Shown here piece by piece: positions 23,425 through 64,000 of a stretch of DNA of 64,000 nt. Position 1 is the first letter of the stretch. Each line of letters starts with the position of its first letter. The DNA is from a virus. Location: the IMG/VR virus record IMGVR_UViG_3300034122_002094; one strand, given 5' to 3'. A program made the position numbers and the translations under genes. A model generated the notes under the pieces. That model saw nothing but the letters and a program-made list of their open reading frames with translations, did no database searches and had not been told where the DNA came from.

Positions 23425-23558
23425 GTATAACTCTTCAGAATCTTTGGTTAAAAATGGCGCACAAGACAAAGCCTGTGCGCCATTTGTTGTCAGCCTGTGG
23501 GCGGGAGAGGTTCTGACGACTCTTGGATGCGAGCCGTTCAGTTCAGAAGCAAGATAGG

Positions 23559-23885
23559 TTATCTGTCGGAATCGTCTGAGTCGACAGTGTCGAGCTCTTC
23601 TGTTGGCCACGTCTCGGGCCAGATGAGCGCCGCCTGGGAGTCGTGAGCTCTCCCGTTGAGGGCCTTCGGGAAGTTGAAGCGCGAGTCAGCTCCGCGACAA
23701 GGCACGAGGTTCACCTTGTACTTATCGTGCTCTTGCTTGCAGTGAGGGCACTTCGCCGTGACATAGCGATAGACTCTGCCCTGGCGGTAGGTGACGATGT
23801 ACCATGATGCTGGCGACATCACCTTCGCACATTCTGGGTTCTTGCAGCGCAGCTTGAACGGCTCATAGCCTGTCTCGTTGATCAT
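23559..23885 (-). CDS. Zinc-ribbon protein
   Basis: CKNPEC...CPHC. Confidence 0.65.
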   Translation of the reverse strand: MINETGYEPFKLRCKNPECAKVMSPASWYIVTYRQGRVYRYVTAKCPHCKQEHDKYKVNLVPCRGADSRFNFPKALNGRAHDSQAALIWPETWPTEELDTVDSDDSDR

Positions 23886-31674: not shown

Positions 31675-31985
31675 GGCGTGGGCTCCAGCTCGAAGCGAAT
31701 ACCATAGGCGTTTCTTGACCTCGGAGCATTGGGCATGATGTATGGCACAGACGATCCCGTCCAGCCAGCGATGGTTAGTCGCGCCTGCACGAGGCTGACC
31801 ATCCTGGCATCGAACAGGGCGTATGTCTCTCCCTCGATGTCGAAGTCAAAGTTAATTCTACCTGGCTCATACAACCAGGTCAGCTTCTTGTTGATCTTGA
31901 GGTCGAGCTCGTCGAGGAGGATGGTCTCCTCGGCGGTCTCAGCAGAGCTGTACGCTGTGACCAGCGCTGTGGGTGTTGTGATCAT
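31671..31985 (-). CDS. Hypothetical protein
   Basis: 104-aa ORF overlapping the dnaE stop. Confidence 0.6.
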   Translation of the reverse strand: MITTPTALVTAYSSAETAEETILLDELDLKINKKLTWLYEPGRINFDFDIEGETYALFDARMVSLVQARLTIAGWTGSSVPYIMPNAPRSRNAYGIRFELEPTP

Positions 31986-36205: not shown

Positions 36206-36420
36206 GTTGTTTTCTTTCCGTATTTGGTTTCTAACCGTGCAGCTTGGAGCTTGAACATGTTGCACACTCTCTGGTGTGCGAGGTCACATGTTTGACACTC
36301 GGGATGCGCTTGGTCGAACAGCCCATCAGCAGGCTCGCAGCTTCTGATGGAGTCGGTGGTTTGGAGAGTAGATTCGTCGGCTGTTGAAGGCTTCGACGAA
36401 CTCGTCTTCTGAGCAGTCAT
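36202..36420 (-). CDS. Possible small Cys-rich protein (start uncertain)
   Basis: C...ECQTC.....C pattern; stop overlaps the dnaE start. Confidence 0.35.
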   Translation of the reverse strand: MTAQKTSSSKPSTADESTLQTTDSIRSCEPADGLFDQAHPECQTCDLAHQRVCNMFKLQAARLETKYGKKTT

Positions 36421-48300: not shown

Positions 48301-49170
48301 GCGAGCGTCACGAACGCGATACAGGTTCGAGAGACCATCGCGGGTCACAGGTGCCACGCCGTAGCTCACAAGCATGATCGTATCGCCCGAGCTGGCCAGA
48401 CGCAGCCGGTAGGAGGCGTAGTTGCCCTGTGGATCTGGGTGGTTTGGCAACTGGATCTTTGCGATCATCTCAAATGTCAAGCCATTGTCGTCTGATCGCC
48501 AGACAAGCAGCCTGTTCTCACTGGTGCTCGCCTCAACCGATCTGTAAGCCAGATACAGACGGCCCTCATGCACGCACATGGCTGGACTGCCAACCTCGTT
48601 GTCAAAGTTCCTGGTCGAGATCGGCTCGTCATCAAAGCGGCGAACGAGCTCAAGATTCCCGGCGTCGTTGCGACGATAGATTACCGCGTGGGAAGACACG
48701 CCCTGAGAGCCAGCGGTGACCCTCTCGCCGCTCATATAGATCCTGCCATTGAAGCTCTGGATGCGCGGGCTGATCAGGCCGATCGTGGAGCTCGCATCAC
48801 CAGTATCCGCCATCTTGAGCGCGACATACTCCTTGACTGCGTAGCTGTGCTGGCCGATCAAGTGGCCATTGCCATCTGGCGGCGTGGAGTCAAAGCTGTG
48901 GTAAAGCTCAAACGGCTCCAGAAGATCCGATGGTGTGATGCCAGACTGTGGCGGGCGTGTGATGGTGCGGCCAGAGTTCCCTCCCACCGGCCCAGACAGA
49001 ACAACCGTATGCAGGTGCGTCTGGCTGCTATTAAGCGACAGCCCCTGCCTTGTGACCTCGATCTGATAGCCAGGATCGACAGACGTGACCATGCTGCGCT
49101 TGCCACCCGTCACCAGGTTGGCGTAGAGTAGCGAGAAGGAGATCGGGTTAATCAGTGCTGTTCTGGCCAT
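45373..49170 (-). CDS. Large tail protein with Asp-box repeats and C-terminal PKD domain
   Basis: Asp-boxes SDDNGLTF and SYNDGFLF; PKD motif WDFGDGSTGSG..V.HTW..PGRY.V. Confidence 0.7.
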   Translation of the reverse strand: MARTALINPISFSLLYANLVTGGKRSMVTSVDPGYQIEVTRQGLSLNSSQTHLHTVVLSGPVGGNSGRTITRPPQSGITPSDLLEPFELYHSFDSTPPDGNGHLIGQHSYAVKEYVALKMADTGDASSTIGLISPRIQSFNGRIYMSGERVTAGSQGVSSHAVIYRRNDAGNLELVRRFDDEPISTRNFDNEVGSPAMCVHEGRLYLAYRSVEASTSENRLLVWRSDDNGLTFEMIAKIQLPNHPDPQGNYASYRLRLASSGDTIMLVSYGVAPVTRDGLSNLYRVRDARVYISYNDGFLFESASNDHRPFIVESQGSIYAKRSDANFSAMFFMASDGVDEDDFLRATVNFDLYFDQIMGQFIILKGGDPTFLIGDADLPPASSGNNRLIGICASPEDPNTWSACIALNLDATTMGYQVSEDPYDVPAVTDPGDTDRDYNFWIYDLAVCTNGTESFIMMTGQSTNRDGLRSSESVFTRFQMTPVQQLPKGFHDKIMAYGSSVHADFSFVCDAFDAAQSGVYHAGDYRSTSNLLNLEDPALAMHNHEVWSTVRFADPDFPLFEEQVPCFIVHGAQSALGEDYGYEMSWTHYAGDPTLGGLDVTSTGSMDTTLTGEGYEFDTSVDGDTGYFESVEVLLSVPERIVLNRDDFFSFKSRIKLELTTPSGLLEFWRLHLLGESAGISLRLSLTSTRDLSFTDSAGTTLTSTGSFVVPEGMVEFLIYNGFGRLSNSSQTYGAWVFVRAEGDRTWVGPWVVDTISSSSPASTQFAVGVVSYDIHGTGHTATVADVRLSSLGQGYRPFMRSAELADAPEEPLGQVLDETKLPSRPLRAYSNKIELPDGVALSFYGGLITERAPADFSYDRVSANNIASNLLVPISNLVHDVTPLYDSLNPPFYVFENTRRQSFNAIGLSNVVGVTKFSIAAGTFDTTTNTFSSIVASQVMQAPFMPLIIAEQDGAILTVQELPLETHRLLNQYAYVYNTDTGAFRTPQYRVIDNFDDVIVLDYSPVLLANETIALTYHSFTFSVPDEVGRARAPHIGLVMEAPDDTGLQLVTIGSVVFGDFLEISQTAMGLSEAIDSSSKIVTSANNFSHTRSVSDKPLQYKTSFDMYLPTTSIHRTLSALADLKQRSVYTALVYQDSEQDYTSFGQLTELDISSIAYDKTGRLTFTSQDYQLQRLPLEPDQAYIELSAPSELFEVGESYTLSINVITTNTSTIAWDFGDGSTGSGSSVIHTWTNPGRYRVVATVDFGENYIETRSILITVTP

Positions 49171-52100
49171 TATTCTACTGCCTTGAGCTTCAGAGTGATC
49201 GAGTATGCTCTGGCCTCGACCTTGTCGACCAGTAGCTCTCTTGTCGCCTCGCCGTCACACAGACACAAGCGGCATGAGTCTGGATCATTGACATCTTCAA
49301 TAACCCAGATCGGTTTTGCATTCAACGAGATCTTGGACAGGATCGCCTCGATCTTGTGGGCTGTCGAGCTCTTTGTCACGCCGTAGCTCAGGTTGTACTG
49401 CTTGCTGACGTTCTTGACGTTGGACTCAGACACCTGGTTGTTCAGCACATACTGCACGTCAGAGGCGTACTCGTACTGGAAACCTCTGCCGTTGTCTGGC
49501 AGTGTATCAATCAGATCCGAAGCGTATCCAAGGTCAAAGCTCTCAAGCTCGACCGCGCCGCCTGGTAGAGGCGTGGAGGATGAGACTCTAATGCCAGCGT
49601 ACCGCGCACGCAGAGGCTCGCTGAGGCGATGGAAGTGGTCAGACGAGTATACCTGTGCATCGAAGTCAAACGAGCTTCCTGGGGCGTCTGGGACGTCCTG
49701 GTAGCGTACTGGCAGCGCCAGTGTCGGCGTGGGCAGCCTGATGGACTCGGTGAAGGGCGACAGGATCTGGTTGATGACCTGTGTTGTCGGAGGAGCGCAG
49801 ACCATCGCCTCGTCGTCGAGCGCGAGCAGCTCCAACGTGTCCAGCGACTGAACCCATGATCTGCGATCAAGCATGGCGTGGTGATCTGGATAGATCTTCA
49901 TGTCCGCCTCAAGGATCCTTGAGTTTGGGAAGGACAGATTGGCCAGCGCGCGGTATCTCGTGTGCGAGCTGTTGACGGTCGCGACCACCTGCCAGGGATC
50001 ACTCACGCTGTCTCGCACGATCACCTGGTAGTCCTTGAAATTCTTGCCCTTCAAGAGGATGGTGTCAAAGACAAAGCTCGTCAGCCCGCTGTCCTGTGCG
50101 TCAGCCCAGATGACTGCGGTGGAGCTTGAGGCTCGCCAAAAGCCATGCAGCTTGCTTGACAGCATGTTGTTGGGGCTCGTGACGACCGATCGCGTCAGCG
50201 TCAAAGAGTCGCCTGTGAGGTTGCTCGTCCCGGTAAACCTTGTCTTGAAGCCCTGGGGGTAGTAGAGTTCGCACGACACGTTGCCAGACGTCGCTGCAAG
50301 CATCCACTGGGTGCGCGCGTGACCATCCTGAAGCGCGAACGTCGGGGTGTCGTTGCGTGGCATCGAAGAGCTTCCGATGAATGGGTTTGCTCCATAGTCC
50401 ACAAATGCTCCATCGACAGGCTCCCTTGGGCCATTGTCAAAGATGAGGTCGCCGAGCTGGACCTCCCAGACATCCATCGTCATATCACCGCCAAAGCTGC
50501 TGATCCGATAGTAGAGCTCGATGTCGCCGTCTGAGAGCGAAGCCTTGGCGCTGGCGTTGAACATGAGAGATGCTGGCGCATACGACTGGCTGTAAACCAC
50601 TCCAGTCTCGCTGAGGCGCGGCTTGATGATCACCATATAGTCAGATTTGCCCTGGGCCGCCTGCTTGCAAGCAAGGTCGAGATCGTAGAGAACTCCCGGT
50701 AGAAGCTCTGTTGTGGCGAACGTCACATACGCCAGCGTGCCTGCGTCCATGTACTGTGCGCGCAGCTCATAGACGTCGGCTGTCGTCGGCTTTGTGATTC
50801 GAGCCCTGAGCAGGCTCTCAAGCGTCGTGCCAGAGCCATCAGGATTGCTTGTGTTGTCATGCAACACAATCTCCATCCCGTCTTCATCGACAGAAGAAGA
50901 GAGGCTTGGCAGGACGAAGCTAAAGCGTGCGCGACAGCCTCTATTGCCCTCAAAGTTTCTCAGTCGAAGCTTCTTTGATACACCCAGCGCGTCAATGAGG
51001 AAACCGCTGGAGTTGATGGTTGTGGCACCTGTCGAGCTGTTGGTGACGAGATCTGATTGCACAAGAGCTGGTGTGGTGTTCAGGAAGCTCGGGTGGTAGA
51101 CTGTGTGCGCAGGGATCCCGAACGGGAACGAATCGGCAAACTGAGAGTGGTAGAAGGCTGGCTCCTCATAAGCGCTGCCTGAAGCGCTGACGCGCAGGAA
51201 GTGCTTGTCGCGCGTCAGCGACAGATTGTCCATGAAGCGCGCTGGCATCTCGGGGCGATCCTCATAAGTGTTGAAGGTCACCTCTGGCACAATGTTGTAT
51301 GAGTAAGTGAAAGTCCTCAGCGCTTTGTCGTGATGGGCGTTGAAGACAGGCACCGCCTCGAAGCGACGCGCAGGCTGATAGGCATTGACCAGTTGCCAGT
51401 TGCCAACCCAGTTGGAGCCCATATCAAACTCAAAGAATCGATCTCTGTTGGAGCGGAGGATCGATGCGTCGAGGCTCATGAGCTCAGCATGAGGCTGATC
51501 TGGCTGACTGGCGAAGTCTTGCATGTTCTCAAGCTGGATCGTCGTCGCGAGCGCCACGATGTCGCCGTCGATGTTCCAGCACGCCTCAAGGCTCTCGATG
51601 GGGCGCATCTGGTTGATGTCGTTGTAAGCGATGTCGAAGAATGGCGGCAGGCACACCTCTTTCAGCGTCTTGCCAGAACCTGCGAGGATGAAGGGCAGGC
51701 GCCTCGACTGCTCGATGACCGATACGACGATCGAGTTGTGATCAGAGCTTGCCTGGCACTTGATCTCCTGAGCGCCAGCATAGTAGCCAAACTCTCGATA
51801 CGCGACCGTCGCGAGCTCAGCCTCGTTGAAGGTCCAGAACTCTCGCATCTGAAGCGCGACCTCCAGCGACGAGACCGCGTAGTCCACGGCGTTGGACATG
51901 TAGCATCTTGAGAGACCATTGGCGAACAGCGTCACCTCATTGAGTGGCAACGTCGCAATCTTGAGCGTTCTCGTCAGGTGCGGGAAGCTGGAGATGGCGA
52001 GCGGAACGTCGACATACTCGTTGGTCGAGCGACCATAGATGTCCCTGTCCGCCACCTGGAGCGCCTTCCTTGTGTAGCGGTTGTTGCGCTTCTGAGCGAC

Positions 52101-54059
52101 CGTGTAGTAGACGTGAAGCTGGCTGTTGAGAACGCAAGCGTCAAACGACCAGATCTGATCGCCCTGAGCGACAGACGGCAGGTGCAGCTCGTTACCACGC
52201 TGGATGACATCCGTCTCGGGGTCGTATGTTGACACCATGATCGGCTGGTTCACAGGTCTCAGGCTGTCCCTCAGATCCAGGTTGGTCTCAAGATAGCAGA
52301 AGTGCAACAAGCCGCTCGCGCCCTCAAATGCGCTGATAGACTTGGTTGTCAGATCTGCAAGGCGCTCAGATCCTGACACGTCGATAGCTACAAAAGAATT
52401 TGCGCTTACGTCATGCAAGTAGGCGAAAAACTTGCCTTTTGCAAAATAGTTGTAGTCAAAGTAAAGTCGAGTCAGACCTGGATCTGCTCTATCAGCCAGG
52501 CTTTGTTTGTTTACATACGCGACAGGATACTCGAATGAAGAGATTGGATCGACATAGTCAATCTGACACTCGAAGTCAGCCCCTCGACCTGCGTTGTAGT
52601 TGGTGACCTCGTGCTCAACGTAGTAGTGGCCGCGCGGCATGGTCAACAGGAGGTTGCCTGTCTCGCTTGACGATGGCGCTGTTACAAAGCTTTGAGAGTA
52701 GATCGGGGTGTCGTCCCCAATTCGGAAGACTCTCAGGCGGTGGGCCATGTCAGGCACACCAGGTCCGCCAGGTTGTACAAAAATTGTAAACTGGAGACGA
52801 TGCTGAGCGCTCTCATCATAATCGTCGACTCCGGCGCCGCCCTCTACGCCATAGTAGAGAACGTCTCCATTGGTCAGCGCCAGCGTCCTGCTATAAGCTG
52901 TGCGCAATGGACTCAGCAGCTCTGATGTCAGGCTGATGTTCTTCTGGAACACATGGTTGCAGCCGAGACGGGCTCCGTCAATGCGCATGGAGAAGCCTGG
53001 AAGAGCCGCCTCGGGCTGGATCGAGCCAGCCGTGCGCACCTCATATGTGGCTGTCGTCAAGTCCTGAGGCGAACCATCATCAAAGCAAGTGTTGTAAGCT
53101 TCTGTATTGCCTCTGTTATTTTCTGATGGAAGACCTCTGAGCGGGCAGACGGCAGGAGGGTTGCTGTCAGAATAGATCTGCGTTGTGAGAGACGTGACGA
53201 GAGCGAGCTCATCTCCATTGCGATCAGGGCGAAGGCTCGTGAAGTCCTCGATCACCGCCGTATCGCCAAGACCAGCGCCACAACCATAGAGGAGCGCGCC
53301 TGTGAACTCTCCATAGCACAGGTTGTCGGACATGAAGACGGCTGCACGATCTGTCATCGACAGGCAGATAGGCAGGGTCGAAGGGTGTCCGTCGTACCAG
53401 TGCGGATGCCAGAAGACCGGGAAGGTGTGCAGATGGATCGGCGTCACCTCTCCATTGCCAGGAGCGGTGGACGTCCCTGCCAAACGAACGGTCAGCGAGA
53501 AGGCGCCTGTTTGGCTGATGCCTGCTGTGGGGGTGCTCAGGCCGGAGATCCAGCGACCCTCGTGGAAGAGGCATGGCACAAGTTGATCGTCTGGCGTTCT
53601 CGTGAAGCGGAACACAAGTGTGTCTGGCAACGAGAGCGTCATCGCCACCGCTGGATCGCTGTATGTAAAGAATGTGACTGTGTACTTGCCTGAAGCCAGC
53701 TTGGCGATCCGCACCTCCGCATCCGAGACGAGGACCCTCAGGACCTGCCCTGATGTTGACAGCTCATTCAAGTTGTGGCGAAGCGCATACTCAACGGACA
53801 GGATTCGTGTCTCGTCACCAGCGAAGGTGTAGCGCTCCTGGTGAACGCCCGAGCCAGTCCCCTCCAGCGCAAAGCGATGCGGACCTGTCTTGACCACAGC
53901 ATTCGTTGTCACGTCGGTCACGAAAGGCGTCTGCTCGGAGAGACCGTAGCACTCGGTCTGGTCGAAGACTGGCGTGCCTTGCGCCTCAATGGCAAAGCCT
54001 GCGCTGCGCCCCTGGATGATGTTCGTCGAGGGATTCGTCAAAGACTTAAATTTGTACAT
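49170..54059 (-). CDS. Large tail/virion protein
   Basis: ~1630-aa beta-rich ORF with AAGGAG SD before ATG 54059; follows the tape measure gene. Confidence 0.65.
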   Translation of the reverse strand: MYKFKSLTNPSTNIIQGRSAGFAIEAQGTPVFDQTECYGLSEQTPFVTDVTTNAVVKTGPHRFALEGTGSGVHQERYTFAGDETRILSVEYALRHNLNELSTSGQVLRVLVSDAEVRIAKLASGKYTVTFFTYSDPAVAMTLSLPDTLVFRFTRTPDDQLVPCLFHEGRWISGLSTPTAGISQTGAFSLTVRLAGTSTAPGNGEVTPIHLHTFPVFWHPHWYDGHPSTLPICLSMTDRAAVFMSDNLCYGEFTGALLYGCGAGLGDTAVIEDFTSLRPDRNGDELALVTSLTTQIYSDSNPPAVCPLRGLPSENNRGNTEAYNTCFDDGSPQDLTTATYEVRTAGSIQPEAALPGFSMRIDGARLGCNHVFQKNISLTSELLSPLRTAYSRTLALTNGDVLYYGVEGGAGVDDYDESAQHRLQFTIFVQPGGPGVPDMAHRLRVFRIGDDTPIYSQSFVTAPSSSETGNLLLTMPRGHYYVEHEVTNYNAGRGADFECQIDYVDPISSFEYPVAYVNKQSLADRADPGLTRLYFDYNYFAKGKFFAYLHDVSANSFVAIDVSGSERLADLTTKSISAFEGASGLLHFCYLETNLDLRDSLRPVNQPIMVSTYDPETDVIQRGNELHLPSVAQGDQIWSFDACVLNSQLHVYYTVAQKRNNRYTRKALQVADRDIYGRSTNEYVDVPLAISSFPHLTRTLKIATLPLNEVTLFANGLSRCYMSNAVDYAVSSLEVALQMREFWTFNEAELATVAYREFGYYAGAQEIKCQASSDHNSIVVSVIEQSRRLPFILAGSGKTLKEVCLPPFFDIAYNDINQMRPIESLEACWNIDGDIVALATTIQLENMQDFASQPDQPHAELMSLDASILRSNRDRFFEFDMGSNWVGNWQLVNAYQPARRFEAVPVFNAHHDKALRTFTYSYNIVPEVTFNTYEDRPEMPARFMDNLSLTRDKHFLRVSASGSAYEEPAFYHSQFADSFPFGIPAHTVYHPSFLNTTPALVQSDLVTNSSTGATTINSSGFLIDALGVSKKLRLRNFEGNRGCRARFSFVLPSLSSSVDEDGMEIVLHDNTSNPDGSGTTLESLLRARITKPTTADVYELRAQYMDAGTLAYVTFATTELLPGVLYDLDLACKQAAQGKSDYMVIIKPRLSETGVVYSQSYAPASLMFNASAKASLSDGDIELYYRISSFGGDMTMDVWEVQLGDLIFDNGPREPVDGAFVDYGANPFIGSSSMPRNDTPTFALQDGHARTQWMLAATSGNVSCELYYPQGFKTRFTGTSNLTGDSLTLTRSVVTSPNNMLSSKLHGFWRASSSTAVIWADAQDSGLTSFVFDTILLKGKNFKDYQVIVRDSVSDPWQVVATVNSSHTRYRALANLSFPNSRILEADMKIYPDHHAMLDRRSWVQSLDTLELLALDDEAMVCAPPTTQVINQILSPFTESIRLPTPTLALPVRYQDVPDAPGSSFDFDAQVYSSDHFHRLSEPLRARYAGIRVSSSTPLPGGAVELESFDLGYASDLIDTLPDNGRGFQYEYASDVQYVLNNQVSESNVKNVSKQYNLSYGVTKSSTAHKIEAILSKISLNAKPIWVIEDVNDPDSCRLCLCDGEATRELLVDKVEARAYSITLKLKAVE

Positions 54060-54104
54060 TTTTTCTCCTTGGTGGGCTGAAGTCAAACGACATGAGGCCT
54101 GGGT

Positions 54105-54287
54105 TCATTCCTTTTTCGCCAGACCGTCTGGCGTCGCTTCAGAGGCCTTCGGTGGCGTTGGACGGCTCTTCACTCGCAGTCGACGAACGAACGTCTCCTG
54201 AAGCCTGCTAGAGGCCTCCAAAGCGAGTGTCGTTGTGCTGGCCACAGTATGGCCTCTCCGTGGCGCTGGTCCGGCTGAGTCTTTCAT
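54105..54287 (-). CDS. Possible small basic protein
   Basis: 60-aa ORF on the operon strand; weak support. Confidence 0.25.
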   Translation of the reverse strand: MKDSAGPAPRRGHTVASTTTLALEASSRLQETFVRRLRVKSRPTPPKASEATPDGLAKKE

Positions 54288-54324
54288 TTTTTATTTTCAG
54301 ACCACCACTACACTGACCGAAGTG

Positions 54325-54807
54325 GTGACTCGCGAGTCAGTCGCTGTGTACCGATGGTGCCGACACACAGCGGAAAGGGAGGGCCGGTACACGCTTTTAC
54401 CTATTGGACTCAGGTGCTTAAACACCATCTGAGAGCTTCGGTGTACCGGGCCAATCAGGGTGTGTGCAAGCCGTGTGCAGCGGTGCCCGGTACACACTTA
54501 AATCAATATGGCGTATGTCTTTTATTCTCTTTGGAATGGGCGTGTACCGGGGGGCGTGCTCTTTTCTTGTTTTCTCTTAGAACATATAAAGAAAGAGACC
54601 AGAGTGGCGGTACACGCCATTGCTCTTGTCATTAAGTAGTTGGTAAATAAAGAGAAAAGCGTGTACCGGGCCTTGCCGACACACGCTTGCACACATACAC
54701 GGTCAGCGCCTGTAAAAACGAGCCGATTCAAATGTTTAAGTGTGTACCGGGCATCAAGGCCTTCCGACCCGTCCGCCCGGTACACACTTCACTGACTCAC
54801 GAGTCAC
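54325..54807. repeat. Dyad-symmetric non-coding element with nine GTGTACCG boxes (candidate origin or structured element)
   Basis: GTGTACCG at 54346, 54441, 54542, 54661 and 54742; CGGTACAC at 54385, 54488, 54608 and 54778; 16/17 terminal inverted repeats; AT-rich central spacers. Confidence 0.9.
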
Positions 54808-57800
54808 TCGCGGTTCTTGTCGGCCTGCTTCATCTTCTTGCGGAGCTCAGCCACCATCAGCCTGCTGTTGCGCAGCGTCTCATCTCTGCTTGTGCCGCTG
54901 GCGGCATTGACAGTGAGGTTGAACGTCTGCGTCTTCTGGTTGTTGGTGTTGTAGGTCTGAGGAGCCGCGCTGACGCGAGACGGCGCTGACATGGGAGTGG
55001 ACGATGTGGCTGCACGCTGGTAGTCAGGGATGAACTGACCGCCGTTGATGTTGTTGATGGCCTTGACGCCACCGAGCATCGCCACCGCCTCACGAGTGAG
55101 CACCGCCTCACCGCCGAGCAGCATCGCTGGTCGCTCACCTCTGCCCGGCACAAGACCACCCTCGTGGAACTTGTCCAGCCCGAGGGCACCGCCAAGCGCG
55201 TTGGTGATCGTCTTTGTGACCGAGAAGCCCTTGGTGATGTCCGTGCCTGTGAGCCCCTTCGAGATACCACCGATGGTGCGCAGGATGAGATCCGGCACGA
55301 TGCCGATGACGGCGCCGATGATAGCTGGGATGAGTCGAGCGATGAGCATTGGGAGGTTCTCCACAAGGCCAACGATCATGAGGACCGCCAGCGTTGGGAT
55401 GACCGCCGTGAGCTCAGCGATGAGGTTCGCCAGGTTGGGCAGCAGCGCGCCTGCCATCTCGAAGACCACACCAATGAGCGGGCGGATGAGCTGGAACAGG
55501 GCGCCGAGCATCATGGAGATGATCTCGGGGAACTTCTGAACCACCGTCACGATCACCTCGCTCAGGAGGCCTGGCAGCACCTCGACCAGCGCTGTCAGCA
55601 CGTTCGGCAAGACGTCGTCCACGAGGATCAGGAAGATCTCCTTGAACAGCGGTCCGACCTCCTTCATGACAGTCTTGATGGTGTTCGGCAGCTCACTTGC
55701 AAACTTCTTGATGAAGTCGATGAGATACTCGCTCTGGCCTGTCAACGCCGAGTTGAAGACCATACCGAACACTGTCCCGATCGCCGAGATCGTTGTCGTC
55801 GCGAGCGAGATGCCTCCTGCGCCGACAAGCCCGAGTCCAGCATCCAGCATATCCGATCCGCCAACCTGGGCTCCACCAGTGAGGCCATCGAACAACGTCC
55901 CGAGGTTGTTCTTGGTGTTGAGCGCGCCGAGGGGCGCAGTGAACACCTCAAGCTCCTGGAGACCAGCCAGCGCATTGCTGAATCCAGCGCCGATGTTCTC
56001 GACAGCAGGACCGAGGAAGTTGTCCTTGAAGACCTGACCAGTGCGCATGAGCGCATCCTGGTATGTCTTCTCAGCGGCCATCAGCGCCTCATATCGAGTA
56101 CGCTCAGCATCCTGAATCGAGTTGATGTAGTCGTAGTAGCTGTTCTCATTTCGAGCAAGACCATCGTTGGCCGTTTGAACGCTCGAAGCGAACTCCTGGC
56201 TTGCAGTCTTGATGTCCTCGATGAGCTGCTCGAACGACTGAGCATTGGAGACCGCATACTCGATGTTACCGATCGCCTCAAGCGCAGGCGTCAGCCCCGT
56301 TGTGATGGACGCGAACATCGACGGGATTCGCTTCACCAGCGCGGCTGCGAGGCCCTTCCATGAGCCCTCTGCCATCGCTGTGTTCATCATCTCATCGACA
56401 CCCTTCAGGAACGCCTCCCTGACAGCCAGAGGAGTGTTCTTGTAGGTGATCTCCATGAGCTTGGCCTCTCGCTCACGATCGACCTGCGACTGCTGAGCAC
56501 CGATCGCGGCATCAGCCACGGCCTTGCTCGTCGCACGCTCCATCGTGTTCTCGATGCCTACGCCGATGACGCGCGTGAGCATACGAGCCGCAGCCTGATC
56601 GCCTGCGAGCTTTGCAGCCTCCTCAGCCTTGCCAAGAGTGTAGTCTGCCGCGACCTTGAGGGCAGAGCTCATGGTCACAGCCTGCTCCTCATAGAGCTCG
56701 GCTGCTCGGCCAATGAATGTGCCAAGGCTTGCACCAGCTCCCGCCGCCGCAGCGACGCCACTGTTGCGCAGATCCGAGACATCAGGATTCGATCTGTAAC
56801 CACCTGTCTCAGTCTTGAGGTTCGCGGCAAGGTTCTTCTTGGCCGCCGCCCTACCAGACTTTGTAGTCTGACTCTGGAGCGCAGCGAAGCTGTCGACGAT
56901 GTTTTGGAGTCGAGTGATCTCGTTAGACAGGAAGTCAAGGTTGACCTCGAAGTCCTTCTCGATCTGAGGCAGACGGAACGACCCCTCGCCCTTGAGGGCA
57001 GCGGCCAGATCCATGTTACCATCGCCCATCATCGGGCCAAGGATGCTCATGATGGAGCGCAGCTCATCACGGATGAGCGCTGCGTCCCTCTTGAAGACAT
57101 CCATGTTGCGGAAGCCGACAGAGATCAGCATCTCGTTCTTGGCTGCCTTCTCCAGGCCTCTGACCTGCTCGTCCATCTGCATACGCAGCGTGTCAAGAGC
57201 TGCCAGGCCAGCCGCGTTTGTGCGGGAGGCCATCTCGACGAAGTCCTTGTCGAAGTCTGCCAGCGCCTTGTTCGCGCCCTCGTAGTCTCCCTCACGGATA
57301 GACTCGTTGAAGCGCGCCGCGTTGAGGTCCATGCGCTGCTGTGTCAGCTTGAGCAGCACTCTCTCGCGCTCAGCCTCCAGGTCATAGAGCTTCTTCGCCT
57401 CTCGGGCCGCGCGAGCGATGGGCTCGGGCAGTGCGTCAATGTTCACCTTGCCAGCGCGCAACGCATCGAGCAGTGTGTCGGCGAACTCACTGGTCTGTCC
57501 GACGACCTGTCCGAAAGACACGCCCAGAGCCTTGGAGAGCGTCAGAGAGGCCTTCAGAGGCGCTCTGGCGATGTCTGTCCCCATCGCGCTCTTGATGAAG
57601 CTCTCAAGCGGCGCACGGACCGTCTGGATCGCCTTGATGAAGTCCTTGCCGATCTCGGGGCGTCGATCATCGAACATGGCCTCAGCCATCTTCTTCTTGA
57701 TCTTGTCCAGCATGTCTGCTCGATCCTTGAGCAGCTTGACCTCCTTGTTCAACAGACGGATTGTCTCAGACTGCATCTGGAATGCAGTCGTCGCGCCGCT

Positions 57801-60800
57801 CGCGTAGGCCTTGTTGACCTCGTTGATCTGCTGACGGATGCGATTGATCGCTGGCAGCTTCGATGCGAGCGTCAGGATGTCGAGCGTCACCTCACGGAAG
57901 CCCTTCGGCGCCAGCATGGAAGCTGCGATGCCGTAGGTTTCCATCAGCATTTCATTCTCCTCGGCATAGGTGTCAAGGAGCTTGATGCGGTCCTTGAGGT
58001 ACGTCTGCTGGAGGTTGATGATCTGCGTGTACGCCGCGACCGACTCCTTTCCGTTGCCGAGCAGCTCACGGTCAAGCTTCATCTCGCGCAGCTTCTGCTC
58101 CACGATCAGTCGAGAGCGCTTCGCTGTGGACGAGAGGATAGCCAGACCATCAGTCTGGAATGTGTTGATCTGCTTTGCCGCAAAAGCTGCATCGTTGAAG
58201 GCATTCTTCTCCTTCTCGATCTGCGCAGCGATCTCGCGGTTCTGGCGGATGCGGTTCGCCTGTGACTCGAACAAGACCTTCGCAAGCTGGTTGATAAAAT
58301 CAAACTGCTGGCCTTGCTTGTCGAGCTGCTTGTTACCCTCCTCTCGCTGCTGCTGGGCCTCCTCCGACAGAGAAGACTGCGCAGCCTGCTCTGCAAAGCC
58401 CTTCTCCTGGAGCACGAGCTTGTCGCGCTCCATCTTGAGGATCGACTGAGCCATCGCCAGACGCTTCTGATCGGACAGGCCGATGCCGCCCGATGCCGCT
58501 GCACCGCCGTTCTGAGCTGCGTTCAAGTCCTCGACAGCGGCGATAGCCTCGCGGACCTTCTCCCTCGTCGTATCGAACTGCTGGGCGAACTCGTTGCGCT
58601 TGTAGATCTTCGACATCAGAGCATTGGACTCGACTGCGCGGATGGCGCCCTGCTCGATGTCCATGAAGAATCTCTCGAACTCTCTGGCCGTGTCCTCCAA
58701 GATCTTGTTCTGAGTGATGGCCATGATCGACGAGATGGTCTTGTCGAACGCCTCCGTGAATCCATCAGCGCTCGTGGATGCGTCCATCATCGACAGAGAC
58801 ATGACCTCGATGGCCTTGACGAACTGCTCGGAGCTCAGCGTCGCCATGCCGCTCTTCTCGTCATATGCCGAGAACAGTGACTCGATCGCAGCCTCCATAT
58901 CAGCGCCACCGAGAGACTCGATGAAGCGCTTCTGGAGATCCTTGTCGACCATCACGGCGTCCTCGATCAGACGACGAGTGCCCGCCTTGTCGACCTTCAG
59001 GCCACCAGGCATTGCGGCTGGCTGGAAGCCGCGCTCAGAGAAGTCGCGACCGCTCAGCTCTCCAGTCTTCCTCTGGTTGAGAGACTGCAAGCCCAGACGA
59101 CGGAACTCTGCAAAGTTCTGCTTCGATACAGCGACGCGAGCGTTGATGTCGCGCAGGTTGCTCATCACAGAGTTGAACATCTTCGGATCCAGAGGGACGC
59201 CAAACTGCTCACGCAGGTCATCGATCGAGCGGAAGGTCGCCGCGAAGGCATCCTGCGCTCCGACCTCCTGGATGTCAGCGATGGAGACCTTGAACTCATC
59301 GAGGCGGCCCTTGAGCCAGTCAAGGTTCTTGCCTGTCAGGCGCGTCATCTCGAAGACCTTCTCATCGATCTTCTTCAGACCCTCCAGATCTGTTGGCTTC
59401 ACCGCAAACGCTGTGCGCAGACGAGAGCGAGCCTTGATCACCGAGGAGACGAACTCCTCTGTTCTCTTGGTCGAAGTGATGATCTGGTCCTTGAAGGACT
59501 TGTCATCGATCAGAGAGAAGTCGCCTGAGCGGATACCAGCAGACATCTGCTCACGGCGCTTGTTGATGTCGTTGATGGCTGCCACCGCCTCAGCCATATT
59601 CTTCTCGTTGACCATCTGGCCACGACTGTCACCAGCGACCACGTCGTACTCGTTTTGACGCTGTGCGTCTGCGAGCTTCTTTGTCTGTACAGCGAGCTCG
59701 TCATCGAGCTTCTTGAACAGGCCCTTCATGCTCGATGGGTCGACGATGTTCGCGATGTCCTTCTCGATACTGTCCTTGAGACCGTCAGGCAGCCCCTGGA
59801 GCGCGCGCATGGGCACACGGATACCTGCCCACATGTCGCTCGACATCGAGGCCGCTGCGAGCGTCTGGAGCGATCCGATGAAGGTGTCCTCGTGCGACAT
59901 GATCGCTTCTGTGATCGCATCGTCGATCGACTTGCCGCCGCCGAACTGGAGGTCGAGATCGAGGGCGAGACCCTTGACGATCGCGACGCGCTGCTCGTCC
60001 TGCTCGATCTTGAGCGCCTTCTCGCGCTCCTTGGCGTAGCCGCGCACCTGTTGAGCCAGCAAGCGATAGCTCTCACCGATCTCCTTGTTGGACATCATGG
60101 TGATGCCTGAGACGGTCAGAGCCTCGTCGCCGAGCTTTGTGATCTGCTGACGGAGCGCTGCTCCGAAGTTCTCTGGATCTGTCTTGCCGAGGTTGGCGAT
60201 CTTGTCGAACTGGTCAAACGCCTCGCCAACTCCCTTCATGGCCGACTGCTTTGCAGAGGTCTTCGAGAGGGATGCGTTGAGATCATCAATGCGGCCCTGG
60301 AGGTTCTCCACAAACGATGCAGCCTCTGCCGCACCAGTCGAGAAGGCGTAGAAGACGGCGCCAGCGGCCACGATAGCGAGCATTGGAGCCATCAGGGCGT
60401 ACAGAGCCTTGACGTTTGTCCAGATTGCAGCTCCCATCGCCCTGAAACCAACCGTGTTGGTGACGCTGACGACGCCAAGAGCCGCCAGCGATGGCAAGCC
60501 TGCTGTGACAGACGTGTTGAGAGCTCCCTGCGCAGCCGCTGCTTGAGCTGTTGCATAAGCCTCTTGCTGCTGAGCAACAGTCTTCGTCTTGATCGCGATG
60601 ACGAACTTTGCGTAAGCCCCGATGGCGCCAACTGTCTGCTGGATGAGAACTCGGCTCTGGAGCGCTCCAAGACCGTACACAACAGCCGCGAGGACGCGGA
60701 GCGTATTGGCCAGCGTGATCACGCCGAAAGCGAAGATGGCCAGCTTGCCGATGATGCCGCCCGTCGCGTTGTTCATCTGGGTGATCGCCATCGCCGATCC

Positions 60801-63800
60801 CTTGATGAACTCCAGGAACTGGATCGCATACGGCGCGAGCTTGTCAAAGCCCTGACGGATCAGATCGAGGATGGCTTGACGCATCTGATTAAACTTGCGA
60901 TCAAGCGACTTTGTGACGAGCGAGGAGAGCTCGTCGTTCACGCCTGCCGACTCATCCTTGATGCGACGCAGCGCCTTCTGGACCTCTGGGAACTTCTGAG
61001 CGAGCGTCACGAAGCCACGAGCACCCTCGCGGTCGAAGATCTGGAAGACCTTGTTGAGCTCGCCAGCCGAGATGGCGCCCGTCGCGAGCTTCTTGTTCAT
61101 CTGCTCAAGGATCGACATGAACTGCTCAGCGAGCGGCATGTTTGGATCGATCTCGACGCCGAACATCTTCTTGAGCATCTCGCCCTTGCTGGAGAGCTGA
61201 GCGAAGATCGTCTGGAGGCCACGACCGGCCATACCGCTCTTGATCATGTTGTCGTTGAGGACAGCGAGGTACGTTCCCATCTCCTGGAACGTGAAGCCAG
61301 CAGCACGACCCGTACCGATCACGAACTTGTAGCCCTGGACCATCTCGTCCATCTCGGCCTGGTGATTACGGAATACGGCAACGAGCGTGTTGTTGATTGT
61401 CTCGAACTCCATGCCCTGCGCACCAGCATCAGCCATGTTCTTTTTGAACACGTTGTAGATACCGGCCACAGCTCGGGTGATCTGAGTCGTCTCAGCGTTC
61501 GTCGAGTTAATGGTCTTGAGCGTTGGGATAAGAGCGGACAGCGTCTCCTCAGTGGAGAGACCTGCCGAACCGAGCTCCTTGACGACGTCAGCGGCAGCCG
61601 CCAGAGGCAGACCGAAGCGGACAGCCGCCGAGCGGACAGCCTCGGTTGCAGCGACAGTGATCTCCTCAAAGCTCTTTGTGTCCGACTGGAGGACAGTGAA
61701 TGCTCGCGTCATATTGCGCGCCTCACTGATGACCTCTCGGAAGGCGATGCCTACCGATCCAAGCACAGCCGTCATGGCACCAGCGCCGATGGCGAAGTCG
61801 AGCTGCTGCTTGATACCCTCCACGAGCTGGAAGGCATAGTCCCTGAATGTCGTGCTGGTCGCGTTGACCACGAGGTCAGCGGTCTTCACAGACCCGGCCA
61901 TGTGGTTTGTCGTGGCGATCAGGCGCTCGGACTCAACCAGCGTGCGACGCAGCTCGTTGCGGTAGACCTGCTGCTCCTGCGTGAGCTCTCCCATGCTCAC
62001 CTCAAGAGCATCGAAGCTGCGCACGCCCTTGAGCGCTGCATTGTAGGCAGCCTGGAGCTCAGTCCTCAGAGACTTGAACTCGTTGGACGCCATCGCCAGG
62101 CGAGTCGTGTCCATCGAGCTGAGATCCTGGTTGATCTCAGCAAGCTGCTGGCGCATGGCGCCCGAGTCAAACGTCTGGGTGTTGAAGGCGGCCTGACGAC
62201 CACGATCAGCGAATCCAGCGTTGGTCTGCTGCTGCTGGAACTCAGGCGAGAAGCGCATGTCCGACAGCTTCTGAGCACGAGCCATGAAAGACGCAAGCGC
62301 CGCATCAGCGCGGTCGAGCTGCATCTGGAGCTGAGCTGTCTCCTCCGCGCCCGCGCCCATCGACTGCGCAAGGTTCAGACCAGCCTTGGCCTCGTTGCGG
62401 ATCTTGTTCAGGCTCTGGAAGAGCTGCTGAGCCTCCTGCACTGCATTCTTGGACTGCAACGACAGGATCTCAAGATCCTCGGGCGCAACCTTGGTCTTCG
62501 ACATGCGCTGGAAGCCAAGCTCAAGCAGGTCAATCTTCTGACGCGCCTGCTCGACCTGGTTCTCGATGTCGTTGTACCCCTCCGAGATCTTGATGTTGGC
62601 TGCGCTTGCAGATCTGGATACATCGGTGTTCTGCTGCTTGAGACGGCCAAGCAGATCCACCATGCCGTCAACGACCTTGACATCAGCCGAGCTCACAACA
62701 ACAGAGCCGTCAAGACCTCTGCGCTCTACGCGCTGAGACTCGACGACGCCCTTGATGGTGTCGTCATAATACTTGTTCTTGGCCTTGCGGGCCTCATCGG
62801 CAGCCTTAGCGATCAGGCGCAGACGCTGCTCCTCGCTCTCAGCGCCACGAGCGACCTCCGAGAAGATCGAGCTGCCGCCAGCGCGGGCGTTGGCCTCCTC
62901 TGTGTCGATGCCACCGATCTCACGGCGACGAGCGATCTCAAGACGCTTGACAAGCTGATCGCCCTGACGGACAAGGCCAGCCAGACGAGTGTCGAGGCTC
63001 TTGGCGATCTCCACCTGAGATGGATCGAGGATGAGGCCGTCCCAGCCCTGGACCTCTGCGATGGTGTCCTGAATCTCAAGGAAGGCAACACGGAAGCGCT
63101 CCGCGTCTCTGAGCGTCTTCTCAGTGATGCGAGCAGGCTCCTCCGTCACACGAGTCTTGGAGCGGATGTCAGCCAGTACAGCCGAGGTCTGCGTCGAGAT
63201 GCCACGCACATCGTTCTGACGAACACCAGCCTCCTCTCGCGCCTCCTTCACTCGGATGAGGTTGAAGAACAGCTCCTCCAGAGAAGCTGCGGCCTGCTCG
63301 GCCTGTGGCGCGATGGCGCTGATGCCCTGGGCAACGGCGACTCCTGCGCCAGACAGCAGGTCCTCGCGCGCGCTACCAGCACCAGCAAGAGCGCCAATGC
63401 GGCTCATCAGGGTAGAGATCGCCTGGATGACCTGCGAGGATGTCGCAGGATCCTGGATCGCCTCGTTGAGCTTTGTGACGAGCTCAGACTGGAACTGCGC
63501 GACCATCGAAGGTGGCAGGAACTGCGAGCGGTTGTTCTGAGAGAACAGGCGCTCGATCATCTGAGGGCCAATGATCCCAGACAGCGCCGGATCGGAGGCT
63601 GCCTCCTGGAGCTGTGCGATGAACGGAGCGAATGTCGCGCTGCCGCCCGAGCGCTGAGAGCGGCCATCAGCGGCCTGTGTCAGGGCGATGAACTCGCGCA
63701 GTCGCGGCATGACCTGAGCAAACTGTGTCGCAGTCTGCGTAGCGCGCTCACGGATCTGGCCCAGATAGCCAGTCTCAAGGTTCGAGGCGCGCTCCATAAC

Positions 63801-63998: not shown

Positions 63999-64000
63999 GA

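What the first reader, a model, noticed from the sequence alone, without database searches (positions are those of the whole stretch)
54325..54807. ~480-bp nested quasi-palindrome with nine GTGTACCG boxes inside the tail operon
Seen: nine exact 8-mers in near-alternating orientation (F,R,F,R,F,R,F,F,R). The element is symmetric about ~54565-54578: 54535-49 pairs with 54608-21, 54485-95 with 54661-71, 54461-77 with 54680-95, 54385-92 with 54742-49, and 54346-53 with 54778-85. Alternative perfect pairings also exist: 54484-54502/54735-53 (19 bp), 54384-98/54655-69 (15 bp) and 54738-52/54775-89 (15 bp). The central spacers are about one-third GC by my count, in an otherwise GC-rich genome. Inference: a bidirectional iteron-type origin with an unwinding centre fits best, given the DnaC/DnaB/primase/DnaE module. 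Alternatives are a partition or packaging site, a recombination-site array, or a switchable structured RNA. It is not CRISPR-like.
Basis: partly seen in the sequence, partly recalled or inferred. Interest (0 to 1): 0.85.

Follow-up and report, generated by a model that had tools for sequence, protein, structure and literature searches.

The report
Dispersed octamer-box arrays in giant-tailed phage
A 480-bp non-coding stretch just after the tape-measure gene of an uncultured large phage is one of at least two copies of a rigidly spaced, mirror-symmetric array of an invariant 8-base box, most likely a docking platform for a phage DNA-binding protein such as a replication initiator, though its function is untested.

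Summary
All nine exact GTGTACCG boxes of the 64-kb window lie in 54346-54785. This is the gap between the tape-measure gene (TMP, 3492 aa) and the next tail gene.

It is one member of a repeat family. I verified a second array of 10 exact boxes about 25 kb left of the window. It aligns colinearly with this one. Box positions agree to within 1 bp over 432 bp, although three spacers have diverged to near-random sequence. That shows selection on box identity and on spacing.

Distant relatives (TMP 31-38% identical) carry the same kind of array after their TMP gene, but with other octamers (CTGACACA, CTGACGCA). In one relative a sister array lies between the terS operon and an SF3 (D5/P4-type) helicase operon.

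RNA folding shows no consistent strand bias. Rfam gives nothing above its gathering score. Skew at neutral (four-fold) codon sites does not flip at the array.

Best reading (about 0.4): an origin-type or auxiliary initiator-binding region, comparable to SPP1 oriL/oriR, P4 ori/crr, the SaPI ori or baculovirus hr. One box pair also forms an intrinsic terminator. Rivals are a transcription-boundary operator cassette, TerS sites, RNA, and a selfish repeat.

Earlier notes of this scan reported arrays 2 and 3 in this same genome. I confirmed array 3 only.

The parts
54804..64000 (-). Tape-measure gene. It runs off the window and is 3492 aa in the public contig. Its stop codon is at 54804-54806, inside the right end palindrome.
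   Evidence: PhageMin_Tail and PHROG tape-measure families; gene call in L120
54791..54807 (.). Right end palindrome (TGACTC-N2-GAGTCA type), an inverted copy of 54325-54341. It is specific to this array and absent from array 3.
   Evidence: Pair I3, 17 nt at 94%; alignment A2
54325..54341 (.). Left end palindrome.
54346..54785 (.). Array of nine exact GTGTACCG boxes (extended consensus AAG-Y-GTGTACCGGGC). Starts: 54346+, 54385-, 54441+, 54488-, 54542+, 54608-, 54661+, 54742+, 54778-.
54358..54368 (.). Variant box TGCCGACACAC, which resembles the CTGACACA box of relatives. It pairs with box 54346 through G.U pairs on the minus (sense) strand.
   Evidence: (D11)
54674..54684 (.). Second variant box TGCCGACACAC, partner of box 54661 in the terminator hairpin.
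54647..54688 (-). Intrinsic-terminator-like hairpin on the sense strand of the TMP transcript: 13-bp stem, 6-nt loop, U-rich tail. It is conserved in array 3.
54542..54615 (.). Central box pair enclosing a 58-bp polypyrimidine/AT-rich spacer. This is the best conserved part between arrays 1 and 3 (0.91 identity).
54494..54660 (.). AT-rich core, GC 0.40, the lowest-GC 165 bp of the window. It includes the 46-bp and 45-bp spacers between divergent boxes.
54461..54477 (.). Secondary GTGTGCA-type boxes, mirrored at 54680-54695.
   Evidence: Pair I16
54060..54324 (-). Remaining non-coding leader before the next tail gene. The 60-aa ORF here is probably spurious.
49170..54086 (-). Next gene of the tail block (1629-1638 aa, no family hit). 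Its orthologue follows the TMP gene directly in relative L121.

Best explanation
What it is: the element is a DNA-level nucleoprotein assembly site. It is one copy of a dispersed family of about 450-bp quasi-palindromic 'homologous regions' whose invariant 8-bp boxes are docking sites for one phage-encoded sequence-specific DNA-binding protein.

Proposed binder and role: the most likely binder is the replication initiator. The leading candidate is the D5/P4-alpha-type SF3 helicase encoded beside the sister array. That makes this array a second origin or an auxiliary initiator-binding region, as oriR is to oriL in SPP1 or crr is to ori in P4.

Proposed mechanism (inferred): monomers bind the boxes. 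Divergent box pairs lie 53-56 bp centre to centre, about five helical turns, across AT-rich bendable spacers, so the partners face the same side of the helix. Oligomerisation over about 10 boxes wraps some 440 bp and stresses the AT-rich, polypyrimidine centre, where the duplex would open. Alternatively, the bound protein acts as a fork or transcription barrier.

Second function: one box pair forms the intrinsic terminator that ends the TMP transcript.

What is shown and what is inferred: shown here are the box invariance, the spacing constraint, the multi-copy family, positional conservation with lineage-specific boxes, the AT-rich centre and the terminator-like hairpin. The identity of the binder and any role in replication are inferred.
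For: 1. Non-random boxes. There are 9 exact boxes against 0.58 expected. A sister array at L135:2945-3384 has 10 exact boxes against 0.2 expected. No box lies outside the arrays in 92 kb.

2. Selection on identity and geometry. Arrays 1 and 3 align colinearly. Box frames are 0/36/101/117/170/236/290/337/393/417/432 in array 1 and 0/36/101/117/170/237/291/338/394/417/432 in array 3. Spacer lengths are the same (28/28, 57/57, 45/45, 58/59, 46/46, 39/39, 48/48). Yet the 28-nt, 46-nt and 48-nt spacers have only 0.33-0.46 ungapped identity, and their alignment scores lie within about 1.7 sd of shuffled sequence.

3. Boxes change with lineage while the arrays stay.
- In four of five TMP relatives (L124, L125, L126, L159) the contig ends 70-260 bp after the TMP stop, in a terminator followed by boxes in both orientations: CTGACACA (L124, L125, L126) or CTGACGCA (L159).
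- The heptamer is concentrated in the arrays: 13 of 15 copies in L160 and 9 of 11 in L124.

4. Link to an initiator.
- In relative L156/L160 a homologous array fills the divergent gap between the terS operon and an operon that opens with an 81-aa gene and a 654-aa DUF5906 SF3 helicase, followed by ThyX.
- In unrelated loci, GGTACAC arrays lie between a Bro-N/Toprim/DnaB-like primase-helicase and a MobA relaxase (L116), and just 3' of a DUF927+HTH_56 helicase (L087). The latter is the SaPI pri-rep-ori layout described in PMC9371898.

5. Origin-like anatomy. The boxes are opposed around the AT-richest 165 bp of the window. The centre is the best conserved spacer (0.91).

6. Precedents. SPP1 has two initiator-binding origins of similar organisation. 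Its oriR sits in an intergenic segment that interrupts the late structural genes, bracketed by transcription signals, and bound gp38 there is proposed to stall the fork (PMC6316719). P4 ori/crr is cited from my own knowledge (Ziegelin and Lanka 1995).

7. DNA level rather than RNA. Both strands fold equally well (z -9.0 and -8.85). The favoured strand differs between the arrays.
Against: - Skew at four-fold sites shows no replication-type flip at the array.
- No coverage or read-end data could be obtained.
- This array is not adjacent to any initiator gene.
- The array next to the helicase is equally adjacent to terS, so adjacency does not separate the initiator from the small terminase.
- Box spacing of 36-66 bp is far looser than in classical iteron origins.
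- Arrays 1 and 3 have the same orientation relative to the flanking transcription and share a terminator. Array 3 carries a TTGACA-N18-TATAAA motif with a box at about +5. All this fits a transcriptional role.
- One relative (L121/L122) has only a 48-bp terminator gap after its TMP gene, so the post-TMP array is dispensable.
- The array 2 reported for this genome could not be fetched or checked.
Confidence: 0.4

Rival explanations
1. Transcription-unit boundary cassette. The arrays are terminator-plus-operator (and sometimes promoter) modules bound by a global phage regulator. They insulate or time the expression of the terS-to-TMP block and other operons, loosely like mycobacteriophage L5 'stoperators' or the T4-type PeSL promoter/stem-loop cassettes.
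For: - Arrays 1 and 3 have the same orientation relative to the flanking genes, which are on the minus and plus strand respectively.
- Both contain the same terminator-like hairpin on the sense strand, with G.U pairs that work only on that strand.
- Array 3 has a TTGACA-N18-TATAAA motif followed by a box at about +5 and a box hairpin before the ribosome-binding site.
- The arrays sit at operon borders: after the TMP gene, and in relatives upstream of terS.
Against: - Array 1 lacks the promoter-like motif.
- The motif in array 3 fails the scan's T6 rule.
- Ten boxes with rigid spacing over 440 bp is far more than an operator needs.
- In relatives the terminator lies outside the array.
- No regulator gene was identified beside arrays 1 or 3.
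Confidence: 0.22
2. The arrays are recognition sites for the small terminase (pac-like or terminase-loading sites), duplicated at several places in the genome.
For: - In relatives the sister array lies directly upstream of a 249-259-aa protein that matches TerS PHROGs and has an HTH, followed by terL.
- In the unrelated marine group with the same box, the array lies about 2 kb upstream of terL.
- The P1 pac site is also a two-sided cluster of short boxes (own knowledge).
Against: - At least two or three arrays per genome, one of them 36 kb from terS and one in an early-type gene cluster, is not how known pac or cos sites are organised.
- No data on genome termini were obtained.
- The same gap in the relative borders the helicase operon.
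Confidence: 0.1
3. Function at the RNA level: a tandem set of hairpins in the read-through transcript, acting as processing sites, stabilisers or a switch.
For: - Very stable predicted folds (z about -9).
- Variant boxes keep pairing through G.U pairs on the sense strand in three hairpins.
- The two arrays have the same orientation relative to transcription.
Against: - The opposite strand folds equally well, and the favoured strand differs between arrays: array 1 sense -216 against -207, array 3 sense -156 against -174 kcal/mol.
- The stems are invariant in sequence instead of covarying.
- Loop lengths are conserved while loop sequences are not.
- No Rfam match above the gathering score.
- The sister array in relatives lies in a divergent promoter gap, where no single transcript crosses it.
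Confidence: 0.07
4. A selfish or recombinogenic repeat: a MITE-like insertion, or a hotspot for module exchange and inversion, with no dedicated function for the phage.
For: - Array 1 is bounded by 17-nt inverted palindromes.
- The post-TMP array is absent in relative L121/L122.
- Within one relative genome, the 51-bp centre between 19-bp inverted repeats is flipped between the two arrays.
- The arrays break assemblies in four relatives.
Against: - The end palindromes are not shared by array 3.
- No target-site duplication and no transposase were seen.
- Exact box conservation and exact spacing despite near-random spacers point to purifying selection.
- The position is conserved in relatives with only 31-38% TMP identity.
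Confidence: 0.08
5. Binding array for another DNA-organising protein, such as dispersed centromere-like sites (as in N15) or a genome-compaction or looping factor.
For: The arrays are dispersed and multi-copy, and they bracket the structural block. N15 has dispersed centromere sites, some of them in its late region (own knowledge).
Against: No ParA, ParB or SMC-loader gene was seen next to any array. Lysogeny or a plasmid lifestyle is not indicated in the 92 kb examined.
Confidence: 0.07

Closest known systems
Bacillus phage SPP1 oriL/oriR (gp38-binding origins)
   Same: - Two distant copies of an initiator-binding repeat cluster with an AT-rich unwinding region.
- One copy (oriR) lies in an intergenic segment that interrupts the late structural genes and is bracketed by transcription signals.
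- The phage uses a DnaB-type helicase and a loader (PMC6316719).
   Different: - SPP1 uses a few direct repeats. This array has 9-10 boxes in alternating orientation, spread over 440-480 bp with rigid spacing of 36-66 bp.
- There are two verified copies, and three according to unchecked notes.
- Binding by an initiator has not been shown here.
SaPI replication origin (Rep/Cch-type self-loading helicases)
   Same: - Six to twelve short iterons, half on each side of a central AT-rich region and pointing in opposite directions.
- Iteron sequence is specific to each element and its Rep (PMC9371898).
- An unrelated locus with the same heptamer (L087) has the array just 3' of a DUF927 helicase.
   Different: - SaPI iterons are 5-6 nt, closely packed, and lie immediately after rep.
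- This array is three times longer, is not next to a helicase gene, and is repeated elsewhere in the genome.
Satellite phage P4 ori plus crr (alpha primase-helicase octamer iterons)
   Same: An 8-bp box occurs in both orientations in two separate clusters of one genome. Both clusters are bound by an SF3 primase-helicase of the D5/P4 family (own knowledge; Ziegelin and Lanka 1995, listed in the references of PMC7145576).
   Different: The box sequence, the number of boxes and the spacing all differ. In P4 the two clusters are 4.5 kb apart, here they are tens of kb apart. The helicase of this phage could not be examined.
Baculovirus homologous regions (hr)
   Same: Dispersed, mutually homologous non-coding regions made of repeated imperfect palindromes. 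They are more alike within a genome than between genomes, and are proposed to act as origins and enhancers (own knowledge).
   Different: The host domain and proteins are unrelated. hr units are about 30-bp palindromes within direct repeats. Here 8-bp asymmetric boxes form nested inverted pairs.
BIME/REP arrays of enterobacteria
   Same: Alternately inverted short repeats in intergenic DNA at the 3' ends of genes within operons. Some act as terminators or transcript stabilisers (own knowledge).
   Different: REPs are themselves about 35-bp palindromes, number in the hundreds per genome, and are mobilised by RAYT transposases. Nothing of that kind was seen here.

Membership tests
Iteron-type replication origin (phage, plasmid or island) | Cluster of repeated short initiator-binding sequences | tested here: met
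   Nine exact boxes plus two variant boxes in 440 bp.
Iteron-type replication origin (phage, plasmid or island) | Adjacent or central AT-rich unwinding element | tested here: met
   54494-54660 is the lowest-GC 165 bp of the window, GC 0.40 against 0.572.
Iteron-type replication origin (phage, plasmid or island) | Cognate initiator encoded nearby and binding the repeats | tested here: inconclusive
   No initiator gene lies beside this array. The homologous array of a relative borders an SF3 helicase operon, but also terS. Binding cannot be tested with these tools.
Iteron-type replication origin (phage, plasmid or island) | Replication starts there (skew, coverage, replicon activity) | tested here: not met
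   Skew at four-fold sites does not flip across the array. The raw skew maximum comes from the first and second codon positions. Coverage data were unavailable. Phage skew is dominated by transcription, so this is weak negative evidence.
hr-like dispersed homologous regions | Several mutually homologous non-coding copies in one genome | tested here: met
   Arrays 1 and 3 show 79% column identity and are colinear. A third copy is reported only in unchecked notes.
hr-like dispersed homologous regions | Bound by a viral transactivator, with enhancer or origin activity | not testable with these tools
   Needs EMSA or DAP-seq and reporter or replicon assays.
Intrinsic terminator | GC-rich hairpin followed by a U tract on the sense strand downstream of a gene | tested here: met
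   54688-54657 on the minus strand: 13 pairs, 6-nt loop, U-rich tail. The same hairpin is present in array 3.
CRISPR array | Direct repeats of one orientation separated by unique spacers of uniform length | tested here: not met
   The boxes alternate in orientation and are only 8-15 bp long. The spacers are shared with array 3.
MITE or other non-autonomous transposon | Terminal inverted repeats shared by all copies, plus target-site duplication | tested here: not met
   The end palindromes are present only in array 1. No duplication flanks it.
Known structured RNA family | Match to a covariance model, or a strand-specific structure with covariation | tested here: not met
   Only noise hits far below the gathering scores. 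There is no consistent strand bias.
pac/cos terminase recognition site | Single site next to terS where packaging cuts occur | tested here: inconclusive
   This copy is about 36 kb from the reported terminase region. Sister arrays in relatives abut terS. No data on termini.
Protelomerase target (telRL) | Long perfect central palindrome next to a protelomerase gene | tested here: not met
   The centre is not a perfect palindrome. No such gene was found in the 92 kb examined.

The most novel reading that the evidence does not exclude
The arrays form a three-site 'hr' network specific to a whole uncultured clade of phages with 3200-3600-aa tape-measure proteins. One initiator-like protein would bind all sites, loop out and insulate the 36-kb terS-to-TMP block, and couple replication initiation or fork arrest with termination of late transcription.

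In addition, the GGTACAC/GTGTACC heptamer may be the target of a portable origin-recognition module shared by unrelated phages, plasmids and islands from marine, polar, gut and soil samples. The F-R-F pattern gave 75 metagenome, 6 genome and 19 viral loci, against 0, 2 and 0 viral loci for three control octamers.
Probability: 0.12. Interest if true: 0.8.

Novelty: new variant of a known kind. Interest (0 to 1): 0.55.

Why it matters
Cis-acting DNA elements of uncultured large phages are almost unknown, and their origins, packaging signals and regulatory hubs cannot be found by protein homology.

This element gives a testable case. It has an invariant octamer, spacing constrained to the base pair, at least two copies per genome, and a different octamer in each related lineage. 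That predicts a protein whose specificity co-evolves with its sites.

Finding the binder would show how a 177-kb siphovirus starts or organises replication. It would also explain why metagenome assemblies of this clade break at the same two places. If the GGTACAC heptamer marks one family of origin-binding domains, it could yield a simple sequence signature for origins in many mobile elements.

Tried and rejected
**Searches that found nothing**
- INPHARED phages, DNA and protein searches with the element, the next gene and the TMP. The only hits were remote DnaE and one archaeal-virus TMP.
- IMG/VR with the next tail gene.
- An exact 15-mer in IMG/VR gave only single chance hits.
- BLASTN found nothing at E 1e-5, and TBLASTN nothing better than E 0.008 when re-run at a cut-off of 10, between the window and the first 119 loci fetched by pattern up to then.
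- Rfam gave only noise.
- A full-text search for the octamer returned primers and shRNAs only.
- The marine group with the same box has no close cultured relative.
- Pfam and PHROGs found no DNA-binding family in the genes flanking array 3.

**Access problems**
- No whole genome is held for this window. The record behind L120 is not held either.
- The genome's own full-length TMP never appeared in two protein searches. I therefore could not walk across the 10.5-kb TMP gene to the array 2 reported at about +26 kb. Array 2 remains unverified.

**Ideas rejected**
- N4-like virion RNA polymerase with hairpin promoters: the giant gene is a tape measure.
- CRISPR.
- Protelomerase site.
- MITE: the end palindromes are not shared with array 3.
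- Replication-type skew inflection.
- A flip of spacers between arrays 1 and 3: only the 28-nt spacer scores slightly better when flipped.

**One script not run**
I repeated it from the stored files.

Full report
**1. The observation**

The window holds exactly nine copies of GTGTACCG. Shuffled sequence yields 0.58 copies on average and never more than 3.
- the perfect 19-bp pair 54484-54502/54735-54753;
- the perfect 15-bp pair 54738-52/54775-89;
- the 17-nt end palindromes 54325-41/54791-807.

The midpoints of the nested pairs fall at 54578 (inner three) and 54566-54567 (outer three). The element is therefore a nested quasi-palindrome.

The box extends to a 15-nt asymmetric consensus, AAG-Y-GTGTACCGGGC. 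The GTGT side of each box faces AT-rich DNA and the CCGG side faces GC-rich DNA. As a result:
- spacers between divergent boxes are 45-48 bp with GC 0.35-0.46;
- spacers between convergent boxes have GC 0.65-0.71, except the 58-bp central spacer, which has GC 0.43.

The stretch 54494-54660 is the lowest-GC 165 bp of the whole window.

**2. Setting**

The 3040+ aa minus-strand ORF to the right is a tape-measure protein. It is 3492 aa in a public contig identical to the window. The element fills most of the roughly 740-bp gap between its stop codon and the next giant gene. The 60-aa ORF in that gap looks spurious.

The genome is a novel large siphovirus-like phage. It encodes:
- DnaE with an intein;
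- a DnaB-like helicase, a DnaC/IstB-like loader and a Toprim primase;
- an SbcCD-like nuclease, a dCTP deaminase-like protein and MazG;
- ribonucleotide reductase with a LAGLIDADG intein;
- a GmrSD-N protein and a NADAR protein.

Nothing close exists in INPHARED or IMG/VR.

**3. It is one member of a repeat family**

Notes of earlier readers reported two more arrays of the same box in this genome. I treated these as leads.

I walked left from the window through public contigs that carry identical proteins. This reached a 485-bp gap between small plus-strand genes with ten exact boxes, at L135:2945-3384, against 0.2 expected. This length is an inference from the position of the Hen1/Pnkp-ligase pair.

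Array 1 read on the minus strand aligns colinearly with array 3 read on the plus strand, at 79% column identity. Both arrays therefore have the same orientation relative to the genes around them.

The box frames are:
- array 1: 0, 36, 101, 117, 170, 236, 290, 337, 393, 417, 432;
- array 3: 0, 36, 101, 117, 170, 237, 291, 338, 394, 417, 432.

Spacer lengths are the same to the base: 28/28, 57/57, 45/45, 58/59, 46/46, 39/39, 48/48. Spacer identity, in contrast, ranges from 0.91 at the centre down to 0.33-0.46. Three spacers are statistically close to shuffled sequence.

All 19 boxes are exact, and no box occurs outside the arrays in 92 kb. Selection therefore acts on the box sequence and on the geometry, not on most of the intervening sequence. 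That is the signature of a protein-DNA assembly.

The reported array 2 could not be reached. The genome's own TMP protein never surfaced in the protein searches, so the 10.5-kb gene could not be crossed.

**4. Relatives**

TMP homologues of 31-38% identity led to five related contig sets.

- L121/L122 has only a 48-bp terminator gap after its TMP gene.
- In the other four (L124, L125, L126, L159) the contig stops 70-260 bp after the TMP stop. Each stops in a terminator followed by short boxes in both orientations. The boxes are different octamers: CTGACACA in three relatives and CTGACGCA in one.
- The two variant boxes of our array (TGCCGACACAC) resemble that relative box.
- The 28-kb contig behind L125/L155 begins in another array of the same boxes. 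It lies directly upstream of a TerS-like gene and terL, so the terS-to-TMP block is bracketed by arrays.
- In the contig behind L124/L156/L160 the upstream array fills the 506-bp divergent gap between the terS operon and a second operon. That operon encodes an 81-aa protein, a 654-aa SF3 helicase (DUF5906, above the gathering score), ThyX and a PhoH-like protein.
- The two arrays of that relative are nearly identical in their flanks. The 51-bp AT-rich centre between perfect 19-bp inverted repeats is inverted in one array relative to the other.
- The heptamer is concentrated in the arrays: 13 of 15 copies in L160 and 9 of 11 in L124.

Arrays, their positions and their mirror architecture are conserved across the clade, while the octamer drifts by lineage. 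This is what one expects when sites co-evolve with their binding protein.

**5. The same heptamer elsewhere**

A 24-base pattern (box, gap, inverted box, gap, box) matched:
- 75 metagenome loci;
- 6 species-genome loci;
- 19 IMG/VR loci;
- 0, 2 and 0 IMG/VR loci for three control octamers.

The first 119 loci fetched up to then share no DNA or protein with the window; the 19 IMG/VR loci fetched later were not compared with it. The matching loci form several unrelated groups and often carry many extra GGTACAC/GTGTACC copies.

Where the context was readable:
- In a Ruminococcus MAG contig the array lies between a Bro-N/Toprim/DnaB-like primase-helicase and a MobA relaxase.
- In a soil contig it lies immediately 3' of a DUF927+HTH_56 helicase. 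This is the layout described for SaPI origins (PMC9371898).
- In a marine phage group it lies in a strand-switch gap about 2 kb upstream of terL.

The controls are few, and one of them contains the rare CTAG. The enrichment is therefore suggestive only.

**6. RNA or DNA**

Both strands of array 1 fold far better than shuffles, and equally well (z -9.0 and -8.85). Array 1 slightly favours the sense strand, whereas array 3 favours the antisense strand by 18 kcal/mol. The stems are invariant rather than covarying. Loop lengths are conserved while loop sequences are free. Rfam gives nothing. A general RNA function is therefore unlikely.

One hairpin is an exception. A box paired with a variant box forms a 13-bp stem, with two G.U pairs that exist only on the sense strand, followed by a U-rich tail. 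The terminator scan flags it in both arrays on the sense strand. It probably ends the TMP transcript, as the ordinary terminators do in the relatives.

**7.

The raw cumulative GC skew peaks at 54-55 kb. At four-fold degenerate sites the skew simply follows the coding strand, and it does not change sign between the TMP gene and the genes downstream. The raw peak therefore reflects amino-acid composition.

Read coverage could not be examined.

**8. Interpretation**

The best-supported statement, at about 0.75, is that the arrays are DNA-level docking platforms for one sequence-specific phage protein.

Which protein is open. I favour a replication initiator, at about 0.4, for four reasons:
- the anatomy: opposed boxes around the AT-richest, best-conserved centre;
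- the SF3 helicase next to the sister array in relatives;
- the helicase context of the same heptamer in unrelated elements;
- direct precedents for two distant initiator-binding clusters in one small genome.

The precedents are SPP1 oriL/oriR, where oriR interrupts the late genes and may act as a fork barrier (PMC6316719), and P4 ori/crr (own knowledge).

The main rival, at about 0.22, is a transcription-boundary cassette. It is supported by the shared orientation, the terminator, and a promoter-like motif with a box at about +5 in array 3. TerS sites, RNA, a selfish repeat and other DNA-organising roles share the remainder.

**9. Novelty**

The kind of element (iteron or hr-type arrays) is known. 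The variant is new in four respects:
- about 10 asymmetric octamers over about 450 bp;
- spacing fixed to the base pair;
- several copies per genome at conserved positions flanking the structural block;
- lineage-specific octamers across an uncultured clade with 3200-3600-aa tape measures.

No function has been shown.

Noticed in passing
L124:20735-20993 and L156:1735-2010 (same public contig): The two box arrays of one relative are nearly identical in their flanks. The 51-bp AT-rich centre between perfect 19-bp inverted repeats is present in opposite orientations (flip/flop). This suggests inversion by recombination or template switching.
   Followed up: partly
L125, L126, L124, L159 contig ends; L155 contig start: Assemblies of four relatives break 70-260 bp after the TMP stop, inside the box arrays. 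One 28-kb contig is bounded by arrays at both ends. The arrays therefore share long exact words, or are structurally heterogeneous.
   Followed up: partly
About 63.16 kb left of the window start (ends of the contigs behind L127, L128/L134 and L136): Three independent assemblies (JGI Ga0453912_0000012, Logan SRR27420222, Logan SRR27421186) all end within about 6 bp of the same position. This could be a physical genome end or another repeat.
   Followed up: no
L116:3036-3222 and L087:5392-5591: Dense GGTACAC/GTGTACC arrays in unrelated elements. One lies between a Bro-N/Toprim/DnaB-like primase-helicase and a MobA relaxase. The other lies just 3' of a DUF927+HTH_56 helicase.
   Followed up: partly
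L079:1-460: A series of units, each with a different heptamer repeated two or three times in tandem, followed by a conserved segment of about 25 nt. It lies next to an FtsK/SpoIIIE-type ATPase and is reminiscent of TraB-clt systems.
   Followed up: no
L056, L057, L098, L061 and others: Other metagenome contigs carry tandem arrays with periods of 21, 34, 37 or 38 bp that contain the box or the 14-bp palindrome made of two abutting boxes. Some have over 100 copies and may be coding repeats.
   Followed up: no
window 31982-36265 (-) and 20398-23610 (-): DnaE carries an intein splicing domain. The ribonucleotide reductase carries a LAGLIDADG domain.
   Followed up: no
window 3644-5361 (+): GmrSD N-terminal domain protein followed by a NADAR-domain protein.
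   Followed up: no
window 41702-41705: The 1224-aa gene of the presumed tail block overlaps the start of a ResIII/SNF2-type helicase gene by 4 nt. The giant 'tail' genes and the replication module therefore appear to be co-transcribed.
   Followed up: no
   Followed up: partly
window 49170-54086, 45373-49170, 41702-45376: The three giant genes after the array have four-fold-site GC and AT skews near zero, unlike the genes on either side.
   Followed up: no
one search hit list: Dozens of 50%-identity clusters of 3000-6100-aa tape-measure homologues exist in public metagenomes. They form a sizeable uncultured clade of very long-tailed phages.
   Followed up: no
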